From a virus, in the IMG/VR virus record IMGVR_UViG_3300009499_000053: a stretch of DNA of 64,000 bases, one strand, 5' to 3'. The notes under the pieces are model-generated. The model worked only from the letters and a program-made list of their open reading frames with translations. It had not been told where the DNA came from and did not search any database. This document shows, in pieces, positions 3,658-29,289 of the stretch (positions are counted from its first letter, which is position 1; the number at the start of each line of letters is the position of its first letter). A program made the translations under genes and the position numbers.

Positions 3658-4440
3658 GTGAACGATATGACCAAAACGTTAAAGGTCGACAAGGAAGTAA
3701 TAGATTCCATCGAGAAGTCTTCTAAGAAGTTTGGACAGTTATATCCTGTTCTTGTGGATATAAATGGTAAACTGATCGATGGAGAGAACAGAAAGAAAGT
3801 TTTTGAGAATCCTTCTATTAAGAAGTTAGGGAATATTAAGACTAAGAAGGATAGACTAGAAGCACGGTTAGTAGCTAATCATGCACGTAAGGGTCAACAT
3901 AAGCAGACTTGGGTTCTTACATTAGACCAGTTAGCTCTCATCCTTGAGAGAGAAGGCGTTGAGAGTATTGGGATACAGATTGCTAAGGAGACAGGTCTTC
4001 CTTACAGAACTCTTATGCGATACTTACCATCACAGTTTAAGAATCAAGCACAATCTATTAGGGCCTCTCACCCTCGGTTGCCACATGGCACCCCATTACC
4101 AGAGGAGACAGAGACATCAACATCAGCGAGTTCGCTGGTGCAGTCACCTGCCAAAACGAAAGGAGAGGTTCATGTTCATCAATCACAGGAAAAGATTCCT
4201 GCTAGTGAAATCTTAGAGGATTTCAAGCCTTTGGTTGGAAAGGCAGTACCTAAGATTGAGATTAAAAGGTTCCCTAATCAACCATGGAAGGCTATCATAC
4301 TTCCACGAGACTTCTTTGAGAAGCTTGAGAGCGCATGTTCTAAGAGTCGCGTAGACATGGAAGAGGTTGTATCTCTTGCGCTGTTAAAACTCCTTGAGGA
4401 TTTGAGGAGAAAGAATAGATGCCTAGGAAAAGATCAATAG
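3658..4440 (+). CDS. ParB/Srx N-terminal domain protein
   Basis: GQLYPVLV..LIDGENR motif followed by HTH-like IAKETGLP. Confidence 0.8.
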   Translation: MNDMTKTLKVDKEVIDSIEKSSKKFGQLYPVLVDINGKLIDGENRKKVFENPSIKKLGNIKTKKDRLEARLVANHARKGQHKQTWVLTLDQLALILEREGVESIGIQIAKETGLPYRTLMRYLPSQFKNQAQSIRASHPRLPHGTPLPEETETSTSASSLVQSPAKTKGEVHVHQSQEKIPASEILEDFKPLVGKAVPKIEIKRFPNQPWKAIILPRDFFEKLESACSKSRVDMEEVVSLALLKLLEDLRRKNRCLGKDQ

Positions 4441-10197: not shown

Positions 10198-10272
10198 GGG
10201 CCTGTGGTCCAGCTTGGCACGGATACCTCACCAGCAATGAGGAGAACTTGGGTTCAAATCCCAACAGGTCCA
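10198..10272 (+). tRNA. tRNA-Ala(AGC)
   Basis: cloverleaf, G3:U70, anticodon loop CC-AGC-AA. Confidence 0.85.
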
Positions 10273-10740
10273 CCTGACAGTCTAGCAGATAGCCAAAGTG
10301 TCACAGGAAACTGTGGTAGGAAACTATTATCTACTAGACCTCATAGTCACCTGCGGATGATGGTGTAATGGAAACACATCCCTAGAGGGAAACCAGTGAA
10401 AGGGAAGTCTAGAGGGGTTCCGATTCCCCTCCCCCAATATGGTACAATATAATGGAGAAATAGAATTTGTTAAAGATAGTAGCGAAGACTTCTGATCCAT
10501 CTGTCTAGATCCATGGTGATCTAGAACTGAGCATCGGCTTAACAGGTCGACTCGGAGGATTAGGAGTTCAATGATTGGCCAAAAGAAAGAGAGCAAAAGG
10601 TCGTAAGATACATACCACCTGCGGAAAGTGTGGAATACAGATTGTATCTTGGGATGCCATCGCTTCGGTATGCATTATGTGTGCTATCTGGAAACGATGA
10701 TTCTATCCTTTTTTTTTATACTCATTTTTAGGTAGATAAC

Positions 10741-10748
10741 TTTATAAG
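10741..10748 (+). promoter_or_regulatory. TATA box at the head of the ncRNA/tRNA array
   Basis: TTTATAAG, downstream of a poly-T terminator-like tract (~10708-10718). Confidence 0.6.
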
Positions 10749-10769
10749 TCACTTTTCATATATTTATTG

Positions 10770-10909
10770 ATGCACTTGGTGTTCTAAGATGGTAAGACGA
10801 CTGTCACTCAACTACGTATTCTTGTGGTGTTTAAAGAGCAGACAGCATAAAGAGGAACAAGACACCAAAACAGGCTCCTATTAAAAGACTGTTGACGCAT
10901 CAAGTGCAT
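10770..10909 (+). ncRNA. unknown structured RNA (~140 nt)
   Basis: 13-bp terminal stem ATGCACTTGGTGT/GCATCAAGTGCAT, TATA box ~25 nt upstream, T-tract after. Confidence 0.5.
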
Positions 10910-10947
10910 TTTGATCTACCCGTTTTATCTTCTTGTTCTTCGGTAAA

Positions 10948-11069
10948 AGCCCCGTAATGTAATTGGCCAAGCAGGTTGGGCTTTGAACAAAGAAGCATCT
11001 AAGGCTCTGAGCAATTACTTTTTTGGGAGACACCCTTCAGCGAGAGTTCGATTCTCTCCGGGGCTACCA
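10948..11069 (+). tRNA. tRNA-Gln(TTG) with BHB intron
   Basis: AGCCCCG/CGGGGCT acceptor (A1:U72), CCA, intron helix CAAAGAAG/CTTTTTTG. Confidence 0.8.
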
Positions 11070-11168
11070 GCTCCCGTCATCTAGCCTGGCTAAGGATCCT
11101 AGGCTCTCAAGTCTCTCTATAGACGGAGACCCCTAGGGACATGGGTTCAAATCCCATCGGGAGCACCA
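11070..11168 (+). tRNA. tRNA-Glu(CTC) with short BHB intron
   Basis: GCTCCCG acceptor, CTAGG/CCTAG anticodon stem, CCA. Confidence 0.85.
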
Positions 11169-11323
11169 TTCACTTAGAGGAGGGAAATAGATGGATAAAG
11201 AAATTAGAGATGAATTCGATAGAATCTGGAAAGAAATAGCTAAGATAAGAAAAGAACTAAAAGACCATGAAGATCTTTTTTGGAGAGCTCATGGAGCCAA
11301 TAGAAACTGATAAGTTGGAAAGA

Positions 11324-11467
11324 GCTAGGGTGGCAGAGTCAGGTTTAATGCGCCAGACTGCTAATCAGGGCGACACTTGAACCAGGGCGATACTGGAATC
11401 GAATCTAAACCTGTACAGAAATCTGGTGGGCTTGCCCGCAGAGGTTCAAATCCTCTCCCTAGCGCCA
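11324..11467 (+). tRNA. tRNA-Ser(GCT) with intron
   Basis: long variable arm, G73, CCA, CCAGA/TCTGG stem. Confidence 0.85.
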
Positions 11468-11699
11468 ATAACAATAGTATGGAGGAAAACAAATGAATAT
11501 AGATTTAGATAAACTGATAGCTATAATAGCATCGGCAATCCTAAATGGGGTCTGTATTGCATTCCTCATCAACACAATACTAGCTGGTAGTGCCATTGGT
11601 ACTGCTATAGTGTTTGCATTTCTATTGTGGTTACTAACAAAGAGCTATGCTATCATTATGAAAAAGAAAAAGAAAAGAAGAAAGAAAAATAAATAACCT

Positions 11700-11866
11700 G
11701 TGGGGATGAAGGCTGAAGTAGTTCCGTTGATGCCTGAGAGAAACTGCACAAGTATCTCAGGAATTTGCATGCGTAATAGCAGTAAACGGGACAAGGACAG
11801 CGTAGACTTGGAATGTATGCAGATATTCCATTTACCCCCGGGAGCAATCTCGGCATTCCCATACCA
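11700..11866 (+). ncRNA. tRNA-like structured RNA ending in CCA (~167 nt)
   Basis: 9-bp acceptor-like stem, T-arm-like hairpin, ACCA end, nested internal helices. Confidence 0.5.
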
Positions 11867-11872
11867 TTAACA

Positions 11873-11948
11873 GGAATCTTAGAACAATTGGGAGTTCACT
11901 GGACTGAAGATCCAACCGTTGCAGGTTCAAGTCCTGCAGATTCCACCA
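11873..11948 (+). tRNA. tRNA-Phe(GAA)
   Basis: cloverleaf, CT-GAA-GA loop, CCA. Confidence 0.85.
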
Positions 11949-12100
11949 GCCAGGATATGCTAAGTCTGGTCAAAAGCGCTCGGCTTAAGCGTCTAAGAAG
12001 ACCTTGAGGGCGTGGCTAAGAAGCGTTAAGCTCAAGAGGCTTAGTACTGAGACACCGAGTCCTTAGTGGTTCAGGGGTTCAAATCCCCTTCCTGGTACCA
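11949..12100 (+). tRNA. tRNA-Leu(TAA) with BHB intron
   Basis: CTCGG/CCGAG stem, BHB helix CTTA/TGAG, variable arm, CCA. Confidence 0.85.
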
Positions 12101-12182
12101 GTAATAATCTCCCGAGGCTGAACCTCTCTAAAGGAGGGAATGCGGGGTGTCGTGTGGGGTCGAAACAGGGAGTATTACATCA

Positions 12183-12256
12183 GGATCCGTAGCTAAGCAA
12201 GGTAAAGCGTTGGGCCCTTAACCCAATAATCGTGGGTTCAAATCCCACCGGATCCT
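12183..12256 (+). tRNA. tRNA-Lys(CTT), C33
   Basis: TTGGG-CC-CTT-AA-CCCAA anticodon arm. Confidence 0.85.
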
Positions 12257-12259
12257 CCT

Positions 12260-12333
12260 GGATCTGTAGCTTAACCAGGTAGAGCAGAAGACCTTTAATC
12301 TTCCAACTCCGGGTTCAAATCCCGGCAGATCCT
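12260..12333 (+). tRNA. tRNA-Lys(TTT), C33
   Basis: GAAGA-CC-TTT-AA-TCTTC anticodon arm. Confidence 0.85.
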
Positions 12334-12336
12334 CTA

Positions 12337-12409
12337 ACGGGTGTAGCTTAATGGATAGAGTTCCTCGCTTCTAACGAGGGAAATGAAGGTTCAAGTCCTT
12401 CCATCCGTG
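12337..12409 (+). tRNA. tRNA-Arg(TCT)
   Basis: cloverleaf, CT-TCT-AA loop. Confidence 0.85.
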
Positions 12410-12412
12410 CCT

Positions 12413-12489
12413 GCCGGTGTAGCATCAAAGGTTAGTGCGTCTCCCCTGTAAGGAGAAAGGTAGGGGTTCAAGTCCTCTCACCGGCTCCA
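12413..12489 (+). tRNA. tRNA-Thr(TGT), C33
   Basis: TCTCC-CC-TGT-AA-GGAGA, U73, CCA. Confidence 0.85.
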
Positions 12490-12563
12490 GCCACCTTAGC
12501 ATAATTGGATAGTGCTCTGGACTGTTGATCCAGACGGTGTAGGTTCGAATCCTATGGGTGGCG
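12490..12563 (+). tRNA. tRNA-Asn(GTT)
   Basis: cloverleaf, CT-GTT-GA loop, G73. Confidence 0.9.
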
Positions 12564-12569
12564 CTTATA

Positions 12570-12642
12570 GTCCTCCTAGCTCAATGGACAGAGCATTTGC
12601 CTTCGAAGCAAAAGGGTGAAGGTTCAACTCCTTCGGAGGATG
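12570..12642 (+). tRNA. tRNA-Arg(TCG)
   Basis: TTTGC-CT-TCG-AA-GCAAA. Confidence 0.9.
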
Positions 12643-12645
12643 CCT

Positions 12646-12730
12646 TGCCCGATACCATCAGTCTGGATTAAGGGCTACAGGTCGCGCCTCTTTAATCTGT
12701 AGATCGGGAGTTCAAATCTCCCTCGGGCAT
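12646..12730 (+). pseudogene. degenerate tRNA-like element with 14-nt anticodon loop
   Basis: intact T-arm (GGGAG TTCAAAT CTCCC) and acceptor-like stem, no readable anticodon. Confidence 0.5.
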
Positions 12731-12748
12731 AACATTGACATGGAAAGA

Positions 12749-12823
12749 GGATTAGCGGTCAGTTGGAACTGATCCCTGCCTGTCACGTAGGGGAAGTGGG
12801 TCCGATTCCCACCTAGTCCGCCA
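12749..12823 (+). tRNA. tRNA-Asp(GTC)
   Basis: CCTGC-CT-GTC-AC-GTAGG, G73, CCA. Confidence 0.8.
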
Positions 12824-12824
12824 A

Positions 12825-12898
12825 GCTCGGATGACTGAATGGTAAGGTGTGGGCCTGCAAAGCCTAATTCAGGGGTTCGATTCCTCTTCCGAGCTCCA
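12825..12898 (+). tRNA. tRNA-Cys(GCA)
   Basis: CT-GCA-AA loop, U73, CCA. Confidence 0.9.
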
Positions 12899-12942
12899 GT
12901 TAACAGTATAACGCACTAAGGTGCACTAAACTATTAACTCCA

Positions 12943-13018
12943 GCGAGTGTGATGATAATGGTTAACATGCCTGGCTACCAACCAGGTAATCAGGGTTCAA
13001 GTCCCTGCACTCGCACCA
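12943..13018 (+). tRNA. tRNA-Gly(ACC)
   Basis: GCGAGTG Gly-type acceptor, CCTGG-CT-ACC-AA-CCAGG, CCA. Confidence 0.85.
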
Positions 13019-13092
13019 GGGGTATTAAGCTAGTGGTAGACGATTGGTCTCCAGAACCAATAGCACAGGTTCGATTCCGGTATACCCCACCA
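13019..13092 (+). tRNA. tRNA-Trp(CCA)
   Basis: TTGGT-CT-CCA-GA-ACCAA, CCA end. Confidence 0.85.
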
Positions 13093-13109
13093 TCATAAAC
13101 GTATCACAC

Positions 13110-13182
13110 TCCTGAGTGATGTAAGTAGCATACGTGGTCTGTGAAATCATGAGTAGGGGTTCAATTCCCCTCTTGGGAACCA
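13110..13182 (+). tRNA. tRNA-His(GTG), lacking encoded G-1/C73
   Basis: CT-GTG-AA loop, ACCA end. Confidence 0.75.
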
Positions 13183-13261
13183 GGGGCGTTGGTGTAGTCT
13201 GGTCTAGCATTCATGGTCTGGAACCATGAGATCGTCGGTTCAAATCCGGCATGCCCCACCA
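13183..13261 (+). tRNA. tRNA-Pro(TGG), C33
   Basis: CATGG-TC-TGG-AA-CCATG, CCA. Confidence 0.85.
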
Positions 13262-22775: not shown

Positions 22776-23084
22776 TTGAAGATTGATCTTAAAATAACAT
22801 ACTACTACATAGTCAACACAGACCTCAAAATGAGTAAGGGGAAGATAGCAGCCCAAGTATCCCACGTAGCTATGAAGCTTGGGAAGGAGTATGGGACTAT
22901 TGGTAGGGCAATAGTACTGAAGGGTAATACAATGATACTTAACAAACTAATGGGTCTCCATGATGTTGTGTGTATAATAGATGCTGGACTAACAGAAGTA
23001 CCCAAGGGTTCATTAACATGTATAGGCTTCAGAAAGGGAAGTAACTATCCATCTGAATTGGCTACTAAATTAAAACTATTGTAG
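22776..23084 (+). CDS. pth2: peptidyl-tRNA hydrolase Pth2
   Basis: DLKMSKGKIAAQVSH, IIDAGLTEVPKGSLTCIG. Confidence 0.93.
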   Translation: MKIDLKITYYYIVNTDLKMSKGKIAAQVSHVAMKLGKEYGTIGRAIVLKGNTMILNKLMGLHDVVCIIDAGLTEVPKGSLTCIGFRKGSNYPSELATKLKLL

Positions 23085-23753: not shown

Positions 23754-24385
23754 AGAAAACTTAGAGGAATTTTGGTGTAGTGTCTTTGGTCACAGGTACA
23801 GATTATCAGGTTATATTGGGGTAGCAGCAGGGAATAACTACTGGAAGAACATTACCGCTTGTGAATGGGAATGTTTAAAATGTGGTAAGTCCACTACTGT
23901 AGTAGGGAAAGTAGAAACATTCAATCCTCCTAAAGATGGAAAAGTGGTGTTTTAGAATGGTTAAGTTTAATTCAAAGACGAAAGGTAAAGAGAAGAAAGA
24001 GTTAAAGAAGCTTCAGGAAGAGTTTAATCCCTCTGCTCGTGATCCTTATCCTAACAAGGAAGACAAAGAGGAGAAAGCTGATCAATCGATAAATTCCTTG
24101 GAGGCTTTAGCTGCTGCTATGATGGCTGAGGGTAAGTCCTACGAGAAAAAGAAGAAGGACAAAGAAGATAAAGTAGGTGAATGAATAAATGGAAGTATGT
24201 TTGTGTGATAATTGTCGCAAGCAATTAAAATGGAAACCAGAGGAAAGAGGTTATTCTTTAAAAATTACCCTTTACAAACCTTGGTGTTGTGAATGTTATA
24301 GAAGTAAACATGAGGAAACTAATCTTGGTTTCTGCTCTAAGAAATGTTTAGTTGAATGGCTTTCAAAAGAGAGGAATGAATAGAC

Positions 24386-24392
24386 TTATATA
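24386..24392 (+). promoter_or_regulatory. TATA box driving the ncRNA cluster
   Basis: TTATATA ~30 nt upstream of the first RNA at 24423. Confidence 0.55.
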
Positions 24393-24422
24393 GGCTTATT
24401 ACCCATAACTAATAATATACAT

Positions 24423-24491
24423 GGAGTACTGTAGGTAACGGTTACTTCTATTGACATACTATAATAAGCCCGTTTCCGTCCGTTTGTCTCC
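24423..24491 (+). ncRNA. short Y RNA-like RNA (no tRNA domain)
   Basis: 5' and 3' strands homologous to the terminal stem of the 24627-24774 RNA. Confidence 0.55.
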
Positions 24492-24503
24492 TGTATAATC
24501 AAA

Positions 24504-24620
24504 GTCACAATGGGATCATCCTGTGCTTGCAGGAGTGGCGACATAACAAGTGTTCCCTTGAGCAAGGTAAATGTCGCAATGCTGGTGACGAAGCTCAGGT
24601 TGCTAGTATCCCCATATGAC
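24504..24620 (+). ncRNA. cloverleaf-like structured RNA
   Basis: closing stem GTCA..ATGGG/CCCAT.TGAC plus three internal hairpins. Confidence 0.5.
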
Positions 24621-24626
24621 ATCATA

Positions 24627-24774
24627 GTCACCGGAGAGGTACTGTAGAGATTGGTTACTTCACCCTTCAGAGGTAGTGGTCCAGGTTCGAGCCCTGGTGA
24701 GTCCCTCGGGACTTGTAGCATAACTGGTAGTGCACTTCTGTCACCGTCCTCGCCCGTTCGTCCTCTCCACTGAC
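24627..24774 (+). ncRNA. YrlA-like Y RNA with circularly permuted tRNA-like domain
   Basis: order is T-arm, loop-closed acceptor stem, D-arm, on a long terminal stem; 0.9 kb from TROVE gene. Confidence 0.7.
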
Positions 24775-25249
24775 ATTCTTTTAATTGGAAGGATTGAGAT
24801 GGATGAAAGAAGCACGGCAGTAATATCTGCAATTCTATTGATAATAGGCTTAATTTGTCTAGCAGTAAGTTATACAATATTTTCTATGAATCTACCTACT
24901 GGATTTTATGTTAGAGCTATATCTCAATTGACAGCCCTTGGAGGACTCTCTCTTACACCAGCTGGAATCTTCGGATTTGCTTTGATAGGCATTAGACGAT
25001 TCATAAAATGGTTGATAAATTAAGTTTAGAAGGTAATTAGAAATTGTCACATACAAAAACATATTTCAAAGAAACCGGTAAGAATAAGATTCTATTATGG
25101 ATCTTTAGAAGAGTAAAAAACCTAGCCTTTTGGATTAGATCCAGATGTGATCACCATGATTGTAATAAATGCATAAATCATGATCAATATGGATGTCTAT
25201 TGGATTGGCATGATGGAGATTGTTCATTCAAAGAGGAAGGTAATTAGAA

Positions 25250-25687
25250 ATGGGTGGTAAGGTCCGAACGTTTGAAGTAGAGGAATTAAAAGAACTTCTT
25301 TCTAAGAGCAACTTCAAGTACAGTGAGATACATGGAAAGTCAATCAAAGAAAGATTAGAACTTCTGTTAGGATTTCTAAATAACCGATTTGGGGTAAAGT
25401 TTCTCCTAGTAGGAACAACTGATTGTGGTGCATCTTCTTCTTTTAGAGGATCCCCAGCAGGAAACCCTCCAACTCTACCTAAGACAATTACCTTTAACTT
25501 CAGGGGAAAGTACTCACATACCGTTAAACATGCTGTCTATGTCTTCTGTCATGAGTATGGACACTTGTTATTAAATGAACTGGGATGGAAGGACTATGAG
25601 GAGTATTGTAATCAGTTTGCTGATATGATACTACTAGAGTTAGGAACACTTGCCCCAGATTTTCTTTATGGTGATATAGATGCCTAA
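25250..25687 (+). CDS. HEXXH metallopeptidase-like (ImmA/IrrE-like)
   Basis: FCHEYGH..EEYCNQFA. Confidence 0.6.
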   Translation: MGGKVRTFEVEELKELLSKSNFKYSEIHGKSIKERLELLLGFLNNRFGVKFLLVGTTDCGASSSFRGSPAGNPPTLPKTITFNFRGKYSHTVKHAVYVFCHEYGHLLLNELGWKDYEEYCNQFADMILLELGTLAPDFLYGDIDA

Positions 25688-26132
25688 AACGTTGAAAGAG
25701 ACAATAAGAGTCTCTCTGGATAAGGATAAGTCTAAGACAGAGAACACTGAAGGCGGAGAAGCCTTTAGGATGTCTAAGAAGACAGAACTATACGAAAGAG
25801 TAATGACTTCCTTAATGGAAGGAAAGTTCTACGATCCTGATAGTCAGGGTACAAGACAGGCAATAGCTGATCTAATTGAACAGATGGAGAAGATCGATCC
25901 AGAGTTTCCACTTAAGTTAGCCTCTTATGCTAGGAATGAGATGCACCTACGAAGTGTACCCATATTCATAGCTGTAGAAGCTGCTAAGCATGAGAATATG
26001 AAGAAGCTTCTACCAAAGTGGCTTCCAAGTATAATCCAAAGAGCAGATGAATTAACAGAGATTATAGCCCATTACATAGAAGAGAACGGTCCGATAGGAG
26101 ATAGTAAGACAGGAGTAACTAAAGATGCATGA
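25680..26132 (+). CDS. Ro60/TROVE protein, N-terminal fragment
   Basis: NTEGGEAF, FYD, DPEF..KLASYARNEMHLRSVP, IIQRADEL. Confidence 0.85.
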   Translation: MPKTLKETIRVSLDKDKSKTENTEGGEAFRMSKKTELYERVMTSLMEGKFYDPDSQGTRQAIADLIEQMEKIDPEFPLKLASYARNEMHLRSVPIFIAVEAAKHENMKKLLPKWLPSIIQRADELTEIIAHYIEENGPIGDSKTGVTKDA

Positions 26133-26436
26133 GAATAAACACTGTGAAATTGATAAGGCCATATTCGGCCAGGAATATCCTGCAATTCATGAATGGATAG
26201 ATGAGTTCTTCCCAAACTACCAAGATTGGGAACATTGGAAAGAAAGACATCACCTTACTGCTATCCGAGAGAAATATAAAGAGGGCTCTAATGAGTATCT
26301 TTCTGCACTCTTGCATATTATCTGTGACTGGATTAGTCATGTAAAAGCATTTGAACTTCCTACAGATAGAAAGGAAACTCTAGAAATGTTAACCAACTAT
26401 TGTCTAATTTCAGGGGATGATAAAAATGTTAAGTAA
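26125..26436 (+). CDS. His-rich hypothetical protein inserted within the TROVE gene
   Basis: HCE..FG..IHEWID..HWKERHH..HIICD; overlaps both TROVE fragments. Confidence 0.6.
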   Translation: MHENKHCEIDKAIFGQEYPAIHEWIDEFFPNYQDWEHWKERHHLTAIREKYKEGSNEYLSALLHIICDWISHVKAFELPTDRKETLEMLTNYCLISGDDKNVK

Positions 26437-27571
26437 CCCATTAAAGAAAGGCCTTCAAGAAGCTATTCATAAATTCAGAGAGTACCACTTTGCTAAGTAC
26501 AAGGGAAGAGGTAAAGCTGTTACAATGAAGGATGTCCTGAGGTTAGTTCACCCTAAACCTAGAAATGAAGAAGAGAGTGCACTATTCAAGAAGATCATAG
26601 AGGGTACACTTACACCTCCAAAGACATGGGAGGTATTCATAAGTACCAACGGTGCTAGTAAGAAGAACTGGGAGATCATCATGTCCAAGATGGGTATCAT
26701 GGCTCAACTTAGGAATCTTAGAAACTTTGCTAAGTATGGCTGTAACGTAGACTCAGTAATAAGGAACCTAAACAATGAAACTACAATCCTTAAGAGTAAA
26801 CAGTTTCCATTCAGATTCTTCTCAGCATATAAGGCTCTAGCCCAAGGTATGCGTGAGATTCCAGCTAAGTATCATCCTTTGACTCAACATCTGATGGATG
26901 CTGTACAAGATGCTATGGCAATCTCAGTAAAGAACTTACCAGTCATTCCAGGAATAACATTCATGACTGCTGATAACTCGTCCTCAATGGGTGGTCTTTT
27001 ATCTGAAAGAGGTTCAGTTTCCTATAGTGATGTAGCTAATCTTCTACAGGCCATAGCTTACCGGATCTCAGATCAGGCTGTAACATCTGTCTTCGGACAA
27101 GAGTTTGCTATTGTTCCTGTAAGTCAGAGATCAACTATCATAGATAACATGTTAAAGTTCAAGAACACAGATGTAGGACACTCAACAAATGCTTACCTAG
27201 CCTTTGAGTGGCTACTAAATAACAAAATCAAGGTTGATAGGATCCTTCTATTCTCAGACATGCAATGCTATCGTGACTCAGGATATTCTACAGACACTGT
27301 GGCTTCTCTTCTTAGAGAGTACAGAGCCAGTATTAGTCCTGGATGTAGGTTCTATTCCTTCGATCTAACAGGGTATGGAACACTAAAGACACCAGAGAAA
27401 GAGACCTACCTGGTAGCAGGATGGTCAGAGAAGGTTCTTAACTTCATAGAACTGAATGAGACCAAAGGAGTCTCAGCAGTAAAAAAGGTGGAGGCGTATG
27501 AGCCCTTCAAAAAGAAAACACAAAGAAAGAAGACCACTTCCAAATCCAAAACTACCCAGAAAGTTAGGTAA
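26417..27571 (+). CDS. Ro60/TROVE protein, C-terminal fragment with VWA domain
   Basis: LKKGL..F.EY.FAKY, DVLRLVHPKP, TWE, AQLRNLRN, FPFRFFSAY, MIDAS DNSSSM, FSDMQ. Confidence 0.9.
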   Translation: MIKMLSNPLKKGLQEAIHKFREYHFAKYKGRGKAVTMKDVLRLVHPKPRNEEESALFKKIIEGTLTPPKTWEVFISTNGASKKNWEIIMSKMGIMAQLRNLRNFAKYGCNVDSVIRNLNNETTILKSKQFPFRFFSAYKALAQGMREIPAKYHPLTQHLMDAVQDAMAISVKNLPVIPGITFMTADNSSSMGGLLSERGSVSYSDVANLLQAIAYRISDQAVTSVFGQEFAIVPVSQRSTIIDNMLKFKNTDVGHSTNAYLAFEWLLNNKIKVDRILLFSDMQCYRDSGYSTDTVASLLREYRASISPGCRFYSFDLTGYGTLKTPEKETYLVAGWSEKVLNFIELNETKGVSAVKKVEAYEPFKKKTQRKKTTSKSKTTQKVR

Positions 27572-28050: not shown

Positions 28051-29289
28051 TTGTCTCAACAGGTAAATCTTCATGAGATACCTCCGAGACGAAGACTGGT
28101 CGAAATACATCAAAAACTAGTAAGAGTTCGGTCCCTTCGGACACTTCGTTCTAGGGTATGTGAGTACCTTCAGTGCGGAGGATCAGAAGTTAAGGAGTTT
28201 CACTACAAGATAAATGGTCATGATTGGAAAGGGATCATCTATCTTAAGAGGAACAACCTAATGGGATCAATTTTCTCTCTTTTTGATAACAAAGTCTTCA
28301 TCATCAGAGGTTTTCCTAAGATAAGATACACTTCTAACTCCCGAGTGAGGGATAGGGTCTGTGTCGCAGAGGAGAAAGTAGATGGTACCAACATTGGTAT
28401 CTGGGCTTTCCCCGATGGTTCTATTATGGGAAAAACTAGGATGGTTGAGAGATGGGACAAAGGTTCTAAGAGGGCAAAGGAGTATGGTAGTTGGAAGAGG
28501 AAGTTTGCACATGTTCCTTGTCATAGTAGAATCTATAAACTAGCCAGAGAGGGGTTCCTAGTATACGTGGAACTATACGGTTATCATAACTCTGGAGAGT
28601 TTGTTAAATACACTACTCCAATGGCTTACAAGGTTATAGGGATAGTAAACTTAGAAACGTATCACTTCTTACCTAGGCCAAGAGTAGAACAGTTATGTTC
28701 AGCATACAACCTTGAAGTTGTTCCAGTCTACTACAAAGGTACACTTACAGCTAAAGAGGTACGAAAGATGGAAGTAGACCTGGAACAGGAAATGGCACTA
28801 GATGGAATGGAAGGTCTGGTTGCTAAGTACTGGGATGAGAAAGACAAAGATTCCTACTTCTGTAAGATTAAGTGTGACAGGATTAAAGAGGTCTGTTGGA
28901 AGATTAGCCGTTCTCTTATACCAGCTGCTATGATACGGAAGTGTATTAAGAAAGCACTGGATGAAAACTTAGGAGAAACACGAATAGAGATTATCTATCC
29001 TGTAGTCGTAGAGGAACTAACAGAAGACTTTGATGAGGCTATCCTAGAGACTTCACAGGGAAAGATTAAGGGTCTAATCCGTTACATGACAACTCCCTCA
29101 GATGTGGTTCTTAAGGCTAGGGTCGTAGAGGTAATGAAGAAGATGAAAGCCCTAGACGTAGATATAGAGAATCCTAAGAAGAAAGGAGAGGTTCTCTCAG
29201 GACTACATGATAAACTAGGGGATATTGGTGGAGGAACATTGTTCAAACTCTACAACGAAGTCCTATTGGAGATGAAAGGAAAATGGTAG
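28051..29289 (+). CDS. ATP-dependent RNA ligase
   Basis: RGFPK, motif I EKVDGTN, ELYG, motif IV EGLV, motif V KIK. Confidence 0.85.
   Translation: MSQQVNLHEIPPRRRLVEIHQKLVRVRSLRTLRSRVCEYLQCGGSEVKEFHYKINGHDWKGIIYLKRNNLMGSIFSLFDNKVFIIRGFPKIRYTSNSRVRDRVCVAEEKVDGTNIGIWAFPDGSIMGKTRMVERWDKGSKRAKEYGSWKRKFAHVPCHSRIYKLAREGFLVYVELYGYHNSGEFVKYTTPMAYKVIGIVNLETYHFLPRPRVEQLCSAYNLEVVPVYYKGTLTAKEVRKMEVDLEQEMALDGMEGLVAKYWDEKDKDSYFCKIKCDRIKEVCWKISRSLIPAAMIRKCIKKALDENLGETRIEIIYPVVVEELTEDFDEAILETSQGKIKGLIRYMTTPSDVVLKARVVEVMKKMKALDVDIENPKKKGEVLSGLHDKLGDIGGGTLFKLYNEVLLEMKGKW

What the first reader, a model, noticed from the sequence alone, without database searches (positions are those of the whole stretch)
24627..24774. 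YrlA-like Y RNA: circularly permuted tRNA mimic beside an archaeal-element Ro60
Seen: T-arm CCAGG-TTCGAGC-CCTGG (24681-24697) comes first. Next is an acceptor stem TGAGTCC/GGACTTG closed by a CTCG loop (24698-24715), then TA and a D-arm GCAT-AACTGGTA-GTGC (24718-24733). The anticodon stem (CAGAGGT/ACTTCTG) has no loop and continues into a long terminal stem (GGAGAGG/CCTCTCC) with pyrimidine-rich internal loops. Established: bacterial YrlA Y RNAs have this T-acceptor-D permutation on a Ro-binding stem and lie near Ro60/Rsr genes. TROVE starts 0.9 kb downstream. I know of no characterised Y RNA from archaea or their viruses.
Basis: partly seen in the sequence, partly recalled or inferred. Interest (0 to 1): 0.88.

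Follow-up and report, generated by a model that had tools for sequence, protein, structure and literature searches.

The report
Y RNA with tRNA-shaped domain
A large archaeal-type element carries, just upstream of a two-piece Ro60 gene, a conserved small RNA built like the tRNA-mimicking Y RNAs (YrlA) of bacteria and phages; this extends a known RNA-surveillance particle to such elements but is not a new kind of system.

Summary
Window 24625-24777 (+) lies in a 415-nt gene-free gap. It contains a T arm, a 7-bp acceptor hairpin and a D arm, in that order, on a long stem formed by the RNA's two ends. Homologous RNAs upstream of the same split Ro60 gene in five other metagenomic contigs keep every helix through compensatory changes.

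A covariance model built from four of them finds full-length matches beside Ro60 genes in many phage, bacterial and metagenome loci. All are on the Ro60 strand, and unrelated viral DNA gives almost nothing. Several of those matches are also sub-threshold, full-length Rfam YrlA hits (up to 53.6 bits). The tRNA Levitt pair 15:48 covaries across the family.

The RNA is therefore a divergent YrlA-type Y RNA, a new member of a known kind.

- The proposed loop-less "anticodon stem" is not conserved.
- Part of the supposed pyrimidine-rich internal loops is a covarying helix (24647-54/24744-51).

The published Ro60-binding motif is present only in altered form, and the Rfam score (21 bits) is far below threshold. 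Binding to Ro60 is inferred from linkage only. Archaeal affinity is supported; a viral nature is not shown. This scan has noted similar archaeal-virus Y RNAs on other DNA.

The parts
24386..24392 (+). TATA-like box about 26 nt before the first small RNA; candidate archaeal promoter for the whole RNA cluster
   Evidence: Read from the sequence. Comparable boxes lie 22-27 nt before the first RNA in L165 and L001. This is inference; no promoter test exists.
24413..24499 (+). Short Y RNA (YrlB-like): same terminal stem, junction motif, P3 helix and UUACUUC, with no tRNA domain
   Evidence: Model R1 match, 39.5 bits, E 3e-7. The shared 5' motif occurs only twice in the window, against 0 expected.
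24504..24620 (+). Third conserved structured segment between the two Y RNAs; class unknown
   Evidence: Conserved with L001 3990-4110; 31 predicted pairs, 4 with double changes, from two sequences only.
24625..24777 (+). YrlA-type Y RNA (the finding), whole molecule as matched by model R1
   Evidence: R1 166.4 bits. Rfam YrlA 21.2 bits on 24675-24736. Homologues in L001, L165, L167, L003, L164 and L166.
24627..24642 (+). 5' strands of terminal stems P1 (24627-30) and P2 (24633-39, plus 24641-42). They pair with 24760-61, 24762-68 and 24771-74
   Evidence: Predicted independently by RNAalifold on four homologues. 13 of 13 pairs show double changes across 27 RNAs.
24643..24647 (+). Junction motif YGUAG, positional counterpart of the published Ro60-binding GNCGAAN0-1G motif
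   Evidence: Family table: relatives carry GNCGUAG, the window clade a variant. The published motif is from PMC4201824.
24647..24654 (+). P3 5' strand, pairing with 24744-24751; this long-range helix closes the tRNA-like domain
   Evidence: 6/8 pairs in the window, 7/8 in four relatives, with compensatory changes at several positions.
24655..24676 (+).
   Evidence: UUACUUC or AUACUUC is present in all 26 RNAs of the family alignment that include this region. A local hairpin forms in most members. No covariation supports it within the clade.
24681..24697 (+). T arm with the tRNA T-loop consensus
   Evidence: 5 pairs, 100% of cells paired, 4 with double changes.
24698..24715 (+). Acceptor-like 7-bp stem closed by a 4-nt loop
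   Evidence: compensatory changes in L001, L167 and L003.
24716..24733 (+). U8-A9 linker and D arm (4 bp; loop with A14, A15, G18, G19, A21)
   Evidence: four different stem versions occur within the clade.
24744..24774 (+). 3' strands of P3, P2 and P1, with the conserved pyrimidine-rich junction 24752-24759
24778..24786 (+). T-rich run after the RNA; candidate archaeal terminator
   Evidence: Read from the sequence. T-rich runs follow the last RNA of the cluster in L003, L164, L165 and L167. Inference.
25680..26132 (+). Ro60 N-terminal fragment (TROVE); equals residues 1-142 of a full-length homologue
   Evidence: Pfam TROVE; BLASTP against P0015; the split is conserved in relatives.
26125..26436 (+). 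103-aa ORF nested between the two Ro60 fragments
   Evidence: weak DUF6915 match. Absent in L002, L003, L164, L165 and L167, where the fragments abut.
26417..27571 (+). Ro60 C-terminal fragment (rest of TROVE plus the vWA domain); equals residues 149-516 of a full-length homologue
   Evidence: Pfam TROVE and vWA_Ro60; BLASTP.
28051..29289 (+). ATP-dependent RNA ligase downstream of Ro60
   Evidence: Pfam RNA_ligase; the same order is seen in L003.

Best explanation
Window 24625-24777 encodes a divergent YrlA-type Y RNA. It is about 150 nt long. Its 5' and 3' ends pair into a long interrupted stem (P1, P2, P3). The far end of that stem carries a circularly permuted tRNA mimic: a small hairpin, a 4-nt variable region, a T arm, a closed 7-bp acceptor stem and a D arm.

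It is probably transcribed from one TATA-type promoter together with a short Y RNA (24413-24499) and a third structured segment. The transcript would then be cut into separate RNAs.

By analogy with bacterial and phage Ro60/Y RNA particles, the stem would bind the element's own Ro60. The likely contact is its conserved junction (YGUAG, UUACUUC and the pyrimidine-rich 3' strand). Here Ro60 is made as two polypeptides.

The tRNA-shaped end would then present a tRNA-like surface to tRNA-binding enzymes or an effector nuclease. This would be part of an RNA quality-control and repair module that also includes an RNA ligase, RlaP, aRF1 and Pth2.

Shown: the RNA is real, conserved, tRNA-like and linked to Ro60. 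Inferred: transcription, processing, Ro60 binding and the repair role.
For: 1. All stated elements are present in a 415-nt ORF-free gap.

2. Homologous RNAs lie upstream of the same split Ro60 in L001, L165, L167, L003, L164 and L166.

3. RNAalifold, run on an unguided MAFFT alignment of four of them, predicts P1, P2, P3 and the T, acceptor and D arms. 12 of 41 pairs show compensatory changes.

4. Model R1 gives 27 matches at E<1e-7 in 212 kb of Ro60 loci, all on the Ro60 strand. It gives 2 weak matches in 823 kb of control viral contigs.

5. On those 27 RNAs, 96.4% of cells are paired and 33 of 34 pairs have double changes. With the partners slid by 1-3 columns, pairing falls to 41-46%.

6. 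The Levitt pair 15:48 is unpaired in the model, yet it covaries: 12 A:U and 8 G:C among 22 RNAs, and 0 of 10000 permutations reach that count. Chen et al. stress the same feature for YrlA (PMC4201824).

7. Rfam YrlA is the best relevant match in the window and in L165. R1-positive relatives score 31-54 bits on YrlA, and two match it full length at E 2e-9 and 6e-7.

8. The locus layout matches YrlA loci:
- The RNA is on the same strand as Ro60 and within 1 kb of it.
- A shorter companion RNA lies beside it.
- An RNA ligase lies downstream.
Against: - The Rfam YrlA score is 21.2 bits against a gathering score of 69, and covers only model positions 24-84.
- The published GNCGAAN0-1G Ro60-binding motif is not literally present.
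- The single-sequence fold has z = -0.53.
- The alignment behind the strongest covariation figures was fitted to the model.
- Only four full-length and two partial close homologues exist.
- There are no expression or binding data.
- Ro60 is split, so whether it assembles into a ring that binds RNA is untested.
Confidence: 0.72

Rival explanations
1. It is a conserved tRNA-mimic RNA of this family, but its partner is not Ro60. It might instead be a substrate, guide or decoy for the neighbouring RNA ligase, RlaP nucleotidyltransferase, aRF1 or Pth2, or for host tRNA enzymes or nucleases.
For: - Ro60 binding is inferred only from linkage.
- The canonical Ro60-binding motif is altered.
- The cluster sits in a wider translation and RNA-repair block.
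Against: - Across very different loci, Ro60 is the neighbour found in every case. However, all of those loci were collected by searching for Ro60, so this is weaker than it looks.
- The ligase, aRF1 and RlaP are missing from L166, the one distant R1-positive locus whose genes were listed. Gene content of the other distant loci was not examined.
- In bacteria and phage phiLo, RNAs of this kind do bind Ro60 (PMC4201824; PMC12135203).
Confidence: 0.13
2. It is a true circularly permuted tRNA gene. The extended stem would be excised at a bulge-helix-bulge site and the ends ligated. The acceptor loop would then be opened by RNase P and RNase Z to give a working tRNA.
For: - The acceptor stem is exactly 7 bp.
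- Two homologues (L003, L167) encode ACCA directly after the 3' acceptor strand.
- The element's own tRNA genes often encode CCA, and some have introns.
- An RNA ligase is encoded nearby.
- Permuted pre-tRNAs of this shape exist (discussed in 10.1101/312249).
Against: - The two ends cannot be joined into a conserved 7-nt anticodon loop. The bases beyond the D arm and before the T arm differ among homologues.
- The flanking stem is not a disposable leader and trailer. It carries family-invariant motifs and covarying helices.
- The same stem is shared by short RNAs that have no tRNA part.
- I saw no bulge-helix-bulge arrangement, though I checked only by eye.
- ARAGORN calls no tRNA here.
Confidence: 0.05
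3. It is a decaying relic of two adjacent tRNA genes (the T arm of the first and the D arm of the second), with no function of its own. Chen et al. warn about this false positive.
For: - R1 also hits real tRNA pairs in the window's tRNA array, but only over the T-to-D part of the model (for example 12232-12286, model positions 57-110).
- The 5' flank scores weakly as a tRNA in L001 (28.6 bits).
- Descent from a dimeric tRNA is the proposed origin of YrlA.
Against: - All helices are kept by compensatory changes in contigs whose Ro60 is only 61-73% identical.
- The acceptor strands pair with each other across a 4-nt loop.
- Matches are full length and include the non-tRNA stem.
- The position relative to Ro60 is fixed.
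Confidence: 0.04

Closest known systems
YrlA (Y RNA-like A; Rfam RF02553) of Salmonella Typhimurium, Mycobacterium smegmatis and mycobacteriophages
   Same: - Encoded on the Ro60 strand, close to the gene.
- The order T arm, closed acceptor stem, D arm, on a stem formed by the two ends.
- A small hairpin upstream of the T arm.
- tRNA tertiary-pair positions, including the covarying 15:48 pair.
- A shorter companion RNA alongside.
- A 7-bp acceptor stem, as in the M. smegmatis RNA, which RNase P cleaves.
   Different: - Scores far below the Rfam threshold.
- The junction motif is YGUAG rather than CGAA(N)G.
- An extra covarying helix and an invariant UUACUUC. The phage and bacterial relatives found here share both, but I did not check them against the published YrlA alignments.
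- The host element is archaeal-type.
- Its Ro60 is encoded in two pieces.
- The neighbouring ligase is ATP-dependent rather than RtcB.
YrlB (Salmonella, M. smegmatis) and Yrl1/Yrl2 of Thermus phage phiLo
   Same: These are short Ro60-bound RNAs made next to YrlA or upstream of a phage Ro60. The window's 24413-24499 RNA plays the same positional role and shares the stem module of the larger RNA.
   Different: No sequence match was tested. The phiLo RNAs were picked by a CGAA motif, which the window RNAs lack.
Circularly permuted tRNA genes (Cyanidioschyzon merolae; Thermofilum pendens)
   Same: The 3' half precedes the 5' half, the acceptor stem starts as a closed loop, and the ends of the transcript pair.
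   Different: Here the paired ends form a conserved, motif-bearing scaffold shared with RNAs that have no tRNA part. No anticodon loop can be rebuilt consistently across homologues.
Ro60 of Asgard 'Nidhogg' viruses (bioRxiv 10.1101/2021.07.29.454249)
   Same: An archaeal virus genome with a TROVE plus vWA Ro60 and an RNA ligase.
   Different: That paper names no Y RNA. I did not test whether this element is related to those viruses. The nearest named cellular homologues of its topoisomerase IB are Bathyarchaeia.

Membership tests
YrlA-type Y RNA (Chen et al. 2014; Rfam RF02553) | Encoded within 4 kb of a Ro60 orthologue, on the same strand | tested here: met
   The RNA ends at 24777 and the Ro60 N fragment starts at 25680, both on the + strand. 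The same holds in all homologous loci.
YrlA-type Y RNA (Chen et al. 2014; Rfam RF02553) | Conserved T and D stem-loops with an acceptor-like stem-loop between them | tested here: met
   The three arms are 94-100% paired across 27 RNAs, and 13 of 14 pairs show double changes.
YrlA-type Y RNA (Chen et al. 2014; Rfam RF02553) | tRNA tertiary-interaction positions, with compensatory G15:C48 / A15:U48 | tested here: met
   The window has U8, A14, A15, G18, G19, U48, the T-loop consensus and a G53:C61-type closing pair. Family-wide 15:48 is 12 A:U plus 8 G:C of 22, with 0 of 10000 permutations reaching that. The window clade itself is uniformly A:U.
YrlA-type Y RNA (Chen et al. 2014; Rfam RF02553) | tRNA-like domain carried on a stem formed by the 5' and 3' ends | tested here: met
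   P1, P2 and P3 were predicted without guidance and covary.
YrlA-type Y RNA (Chen et al. 2014; Rfam RF02553) | GNCGAAN0-1G motif near the 5' end (proposed Ro60 contact) | tested here: inconclusive
   The motif is not literally present. At the equivalent junction, phage and bacterial relatives have GNCGUAG. The window clade has a further variant in which the first two bases covary with their 3' partners.
YrlA-type Y RNA (Chen et al. 2014; Rfam RF02553) | Reaches the Rfam gathering score (69 bits) | tested here: not met
   21.2 bits, E 0.08 in an 801-nt search, model positions 24-84 only. No Ro60 locus examined reached the threshold either; the best was 53.6 bits. The threshold is therefore narrow.
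YrlA-type Y RNA (Chen et al. 2014; Rfam RF02553) | Bound by Ro60 and modified by tRNA enzymes in vivo | not testable with these tools
   Needs immunoprecipitation or EMSA, and modification mapping.
Circularly permuted tRNA gene | The ends rebuild an anticodon stem and a 7-nt loop through a bulge-helix-bulge splice site | tested here: not met
The bases next to the junction are not conserved as a loop. The flanks form covarying helices shared with non-tRNA RNAs. The bulge-helix-bulge check was by eye only.
Metazoan-type Y RNA (Rfam Y_RNA) | Match to the family model or its conserved bulged helix | tested here: not met
   No Y_RNA match at E up to 10 in 24300-25100.

The most novel reading that the evidence does not exclude
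The 7-bp acceptor hairpin is opened in vivo by RNase P and 3' trimming, as in M. smegmatis YrlA, and ends in CCA. Two relatives already encode ACCA at that spot. This would give a two-piece tRNA mimic carried on a scaffold stem. Such an RNA could be aminoacylated, or could enter the ribosome, aRF1 or Pth2 pathway. The element's Ro60 particle would then act directly in translation rescue or takeover, not only in RNA decay.
Probability: 0.07. Interest if true: 0.85.

Novelty: new member of a known kind. Interest (0 to 1): 0.45.

Why it matters
Y RNAs with a tRNA-shaped domain are documented in bacteria and phages. I found none described for archaea or their mobile elements in the searchable literature.

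This locus gives a well-supported candidate with six related copies. It comes with a companion short RNA, a naturally two-piece Ro60 and a linked RNA ligase. That makes binding and assembly experiments straightforward.

The family-wide alignment also points to the conserved junction and the invariant UUACUUC as the likely protein-contact site. This could refine searches for Y RNAs, which the current Rfam model mostly misses.

Tried and rejected
- **Rfam, whole window at gathering threshold:** only tRNAs.
- **ARAGORN:** no tRNA at the site.
- **Phage database by blastn:** no match.
- **IMG/VR:** a search with the Ro60 C fragment found no close relatives. With the clade alignment it found only distant Ro60 loci.
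- **Motif scans of IMG/VR:** a 15-base motif scan returned about 119 single chance hits. I reused these as control DNA. A stricter motif found nothing.
- **Whole genome:** none is held for the window or for L001.
- **Contigs of P0004-P0007 and P0126:** too short to reach the RNA.
- **Rfam at gathering threshold on 26 other Ro60 loci:** no YrlA, so failing that threshold says little.
- **Normal-order tRNA reading of the 5' part:** rejected. It scores 15.5 bits in the window and 28.6 bits in L001. Its acceptor pairing is poor, and the 'D stem' it needs is contradicted by relatives.
- **Minus-strand 163-aa ORF 24386-24877:** no family match and not called in the relatives.
- **PHROGs on ten ORFs:** nothing, so a viral nature is not shown.
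- **Accession search in papers:** nothing.

Full report
**What is in the sequence**

The stretch 24384-24798 has no credible + strand ORF. The flanking ORFs end at 24383 and start at 24799.
- T arm, 24681-97.
- 7-bp acceptor hairpin with a 4-nt loop, 24698-715.
- Two linker bases, then a 4-bp D arm, 24718-33.
- A 7-nt pairing, 24668-74 with 24734-40.
- A 7-bp terminal stem, 24633-39 with 24762-68.

The tRNA landmark bases are all present: U8, A14, A15, G18, G19, A21, U48, the T-loop consensus and the closing G:C of the T stem.

ARAGORN and Rfam at gathering threshold call nothing here. A permissive Rfam search of 24300-25100 gives YrlA as the top relevant hit. It scores 21.2 bits against a threshold of 69, with E 0.08, and covers only the T/acceptor/D part of the model. 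The single-sequence fold is not unusually stable (z -0.53).

**Surroundings**

Downstream, on the same strand, lies a Ro60 gene in two pieces:
- 25680-26132 carries the N-terminal part of TROVE.
- 26417-27571 carries the rest of TROVE plus the vWA domain.
- A 103-aa ORF sits between them, in a third reading frame.

The two pieces align to residues 1-142 and 149-516 of a full-length 521-aa homologue, so together they make a complete Ro60. An ATP-dependent RNA ligase follows at 28051-29289.

Upstream are RlaP, an aRF1-like protein and a Pth2 fragment. Further upstream is an array of at least 16 tRNA genes. Two have short anticodon-loop introns and many encode CCA.

The element also encodes a eukaryotic-type topoisomerase IB. 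Its nearest named cellular homologues are Bathyarchaeia, at 44-47% identity. Ten ORFs gave no PHROG match. I therefore call it an archaeal-type element and leave open whether it is a virus.

**Relatives**

Searching with each Ro60 fragment found a small clade in which the gene is always split. Contigs that reach upstream carry a homologous RNA at the same place:
- L001 4110-4259.
- L165 964-1114.
- L167 15-170.
- L003 1-110 and L164 1-75, both cut by the contig end.
- L166 6023-6174, a more distant split-Ro60 locus.

The arms change in a compensatory way. There are three versions of the T stem and four of the D stem. The acceptor stem exchanges several pairs.

RNAalifold on an unguided MAFFT alignment of the four full-length copies predicts P1, P2, the three arms and a further helix. 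That helix, P3, pairs 24647-54 with 24744-51. 12 of 41 pairs have double changes.

The pairing 24668-74/24734-40 is intact in the window and L165 and nearly so in L003. It drops to 4/7 in L001 and 3/7 in L167, and no position shows a double change.

The same bases can instead form a local hairpin with the invariant UUACUUC (24655-61/24670-76). Most members of the wider family have a hairpin at that place. It corresponds to the 'V' stem-loop that Chen et al. describe upstream of the T arm.

P3 does covary, and it is the stem that closes the tRNA-like domain. The local pairing in the window itself remains unresolved.

**Wider family**

I built a covariance model, R1, from the four copies and left the disputed region unpaired.

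R1 finds 27 matches at E<1e-7 in 212 kb of Ro60 loci. These loci come from IMG/VR phage contigs, metagenomes and one Bacteroidota genome. All matches are on the Ro60 strand, most are full length, and some are tandem. L170 has three in a row.

As a control I searched 823 kb of unrelated viral contigs. These had been fetched because they contain a chance copy of the 5' motif. R1 gave two weak hits there, at 26.8 and 24.4 bits.

On the 27 RNAs, 96.4% of cells pair and 33 of 34 pairs have double changes. Slid controls pair at 41-46%. That alignment is model-fitted, which inflates pairing.

The Levitt pair 15:48 is not part of the model, and it covaries cleanly: 12 A:U and 8 G:C among 22 RNAs, with 0 of 10000 permutations reaching that count. 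Relatedness is not controlled for, and the window clade is all A:U.

Several R1-positive RNAs are also Rfam YrlA matches: L158 at 53.6 bits and L169 at 44.9 bits, both full length, and others at 31-37 bits. This links the window RNA to YrlA through intermediates. None reaches the Rfam threshold, so that threshold is narrow.

**Conserved non-tRNA features**

All 26 family members whose sequence includes this region carry UUACUUC (or AUACUUC) immediately after the P3 5' strand.

At the P2/P3 junction the relatives read GNCGUAG. That is one base away from the published Ro60-contact motif GNCGAAN0-1G (PMC4201824). In the window clade the first two positions have changed together with their pairing partners, and the C has become U. 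I read this junction as the probable Ro60 site. That is inference.

**The cluster**

R1 also matches 24413-24499, at 39.5 bits. This RNA has the same stem module and no tRNA part, like YrlB. Between the two RNAs, 24504-24620 is conserved and foldable in L001 as well.

A TATA-like box at 24386-92 lies about 26 nt before the first RNA, and a T-rich run follows 24777. This suggests one precursor, as reported for M. smegmatis YrlA and YrlB. In relatives, internal RNAs are preceded by a conserved 9-nt junction.

**Mechanism**

The most likely mechanism, by analogy with bacterial and phage particles (PMC4201824; 10.1101/312249; PMC12135203), has two parts:
- The stem binds the two-piece Ro60.
- The tRNA-shaped end engages tRNA-recognising factors or an effector.

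This would act within an element-encoded RNA repair and quality-control block.

[quoted passage not shown] L003 and L167 even encode ACCA after the 3' acceptor strand. I treat this only as the bold reading.

**Rivals**

- A true permuted tRNA gene is unlikely. No anticodon loop can be rebuilt consistently, and the flanks form a conserved scaffold shared with RNAs that have no tRNA part.
- A dead tRNA dimer is contradicted by the covariation and by the full-length matches.
- A partner other than Ro60 cannot be excluded without binding data.

**Novelty**

This is a new member of a known kind. I found no archaeal or archaeal-element Y RNA in the literature I could search. The Asgard Nidhogg virus paper mentions Ro60 and a ligase but no RNA. 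Earlier notes of this scan report comparable RNAs beside Ro60 in other putative archaeal viruses, one with the same UUACUUC motif. I did not re-test those.

Noticed in passing
window 24413-24499: Short Y RNA with the same stem module as the finding but no tRNA domain. It is preceded by a TATA-like box at 24386-92.
   Followed up: partly
window 24504-24620; L001 3990-4110: A third conserved structured segment between the two Y RNAs. It matches no Rfam family or model R1, and I saw it only in the window and L001.
   Followed up: partly
window 25680-27571; L001, L002, L003, L164, L165, L166, L167: Ro60 is encoded as two ORFs, split at the same loop (about residue 143-148), in every member of this clade. 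The halves abut or overlap in most relatives. The window has one nested ORF between them and L001 has three.
   Followed up: partly
L003 about 34-45; L167 about 90-100: The acceptor-hairpin loops of two homologues encode ACCA immediately after the 7-nt 3' acceptor strand. The window, L001 and L165 share a 4-nt loop without it.
   Followed up: no
L164 79-237; L167 174-297; L002 5398-5530; L001 about 4262-4370: Relatives carry a further class of RNA on the same scaffold. It has one or two T-arm-like hairpins but no D arm. The window has no counterpart.
   Followed up: no
L002 5300-5400; L164 70-90; L167 165-185; window 24618-24630: A conserved 9-nt junction precedes every internal RNA of the clusters but not the first one. 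It may be a processing signal.
   Followed up: no
L170 3209-3606: An IMG/VR phage contig has three tandem YrlA-like RNAs directly upstream of its Ro60. All are missed by Rfam at its threshold.
   Followed up: partly
window 10198-13261: An array of at least 16 tRNA genes. Two have short anticodon-loop introns (21 and 57 nt by ARAGORN), and many encode CCA.
   Followed up: partly
window 22776-23084: A 102-aa ORF matches only the first ~30 positions of the Pth2 profile, so this gene may be truncated or split too.
   Followed up: no
L166 1-12636: A distant split-Ro60 locus with its own pair of Y RNAs. It also carries two tRNAs, a reverse transcriptase, an RnlB-antitoxin-like gene and an SRAP gene. 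Its called Ro60 N-fragment ORF overlaps the RNA and probably starts further downstream.
   Followed up: no
window 24386-24877 (- strand): A 163-aa minus-strand ORF spans the whole RNA cluster. It has no family match and is not called in relatives, so it is probably spurious.
   Followed up: partly
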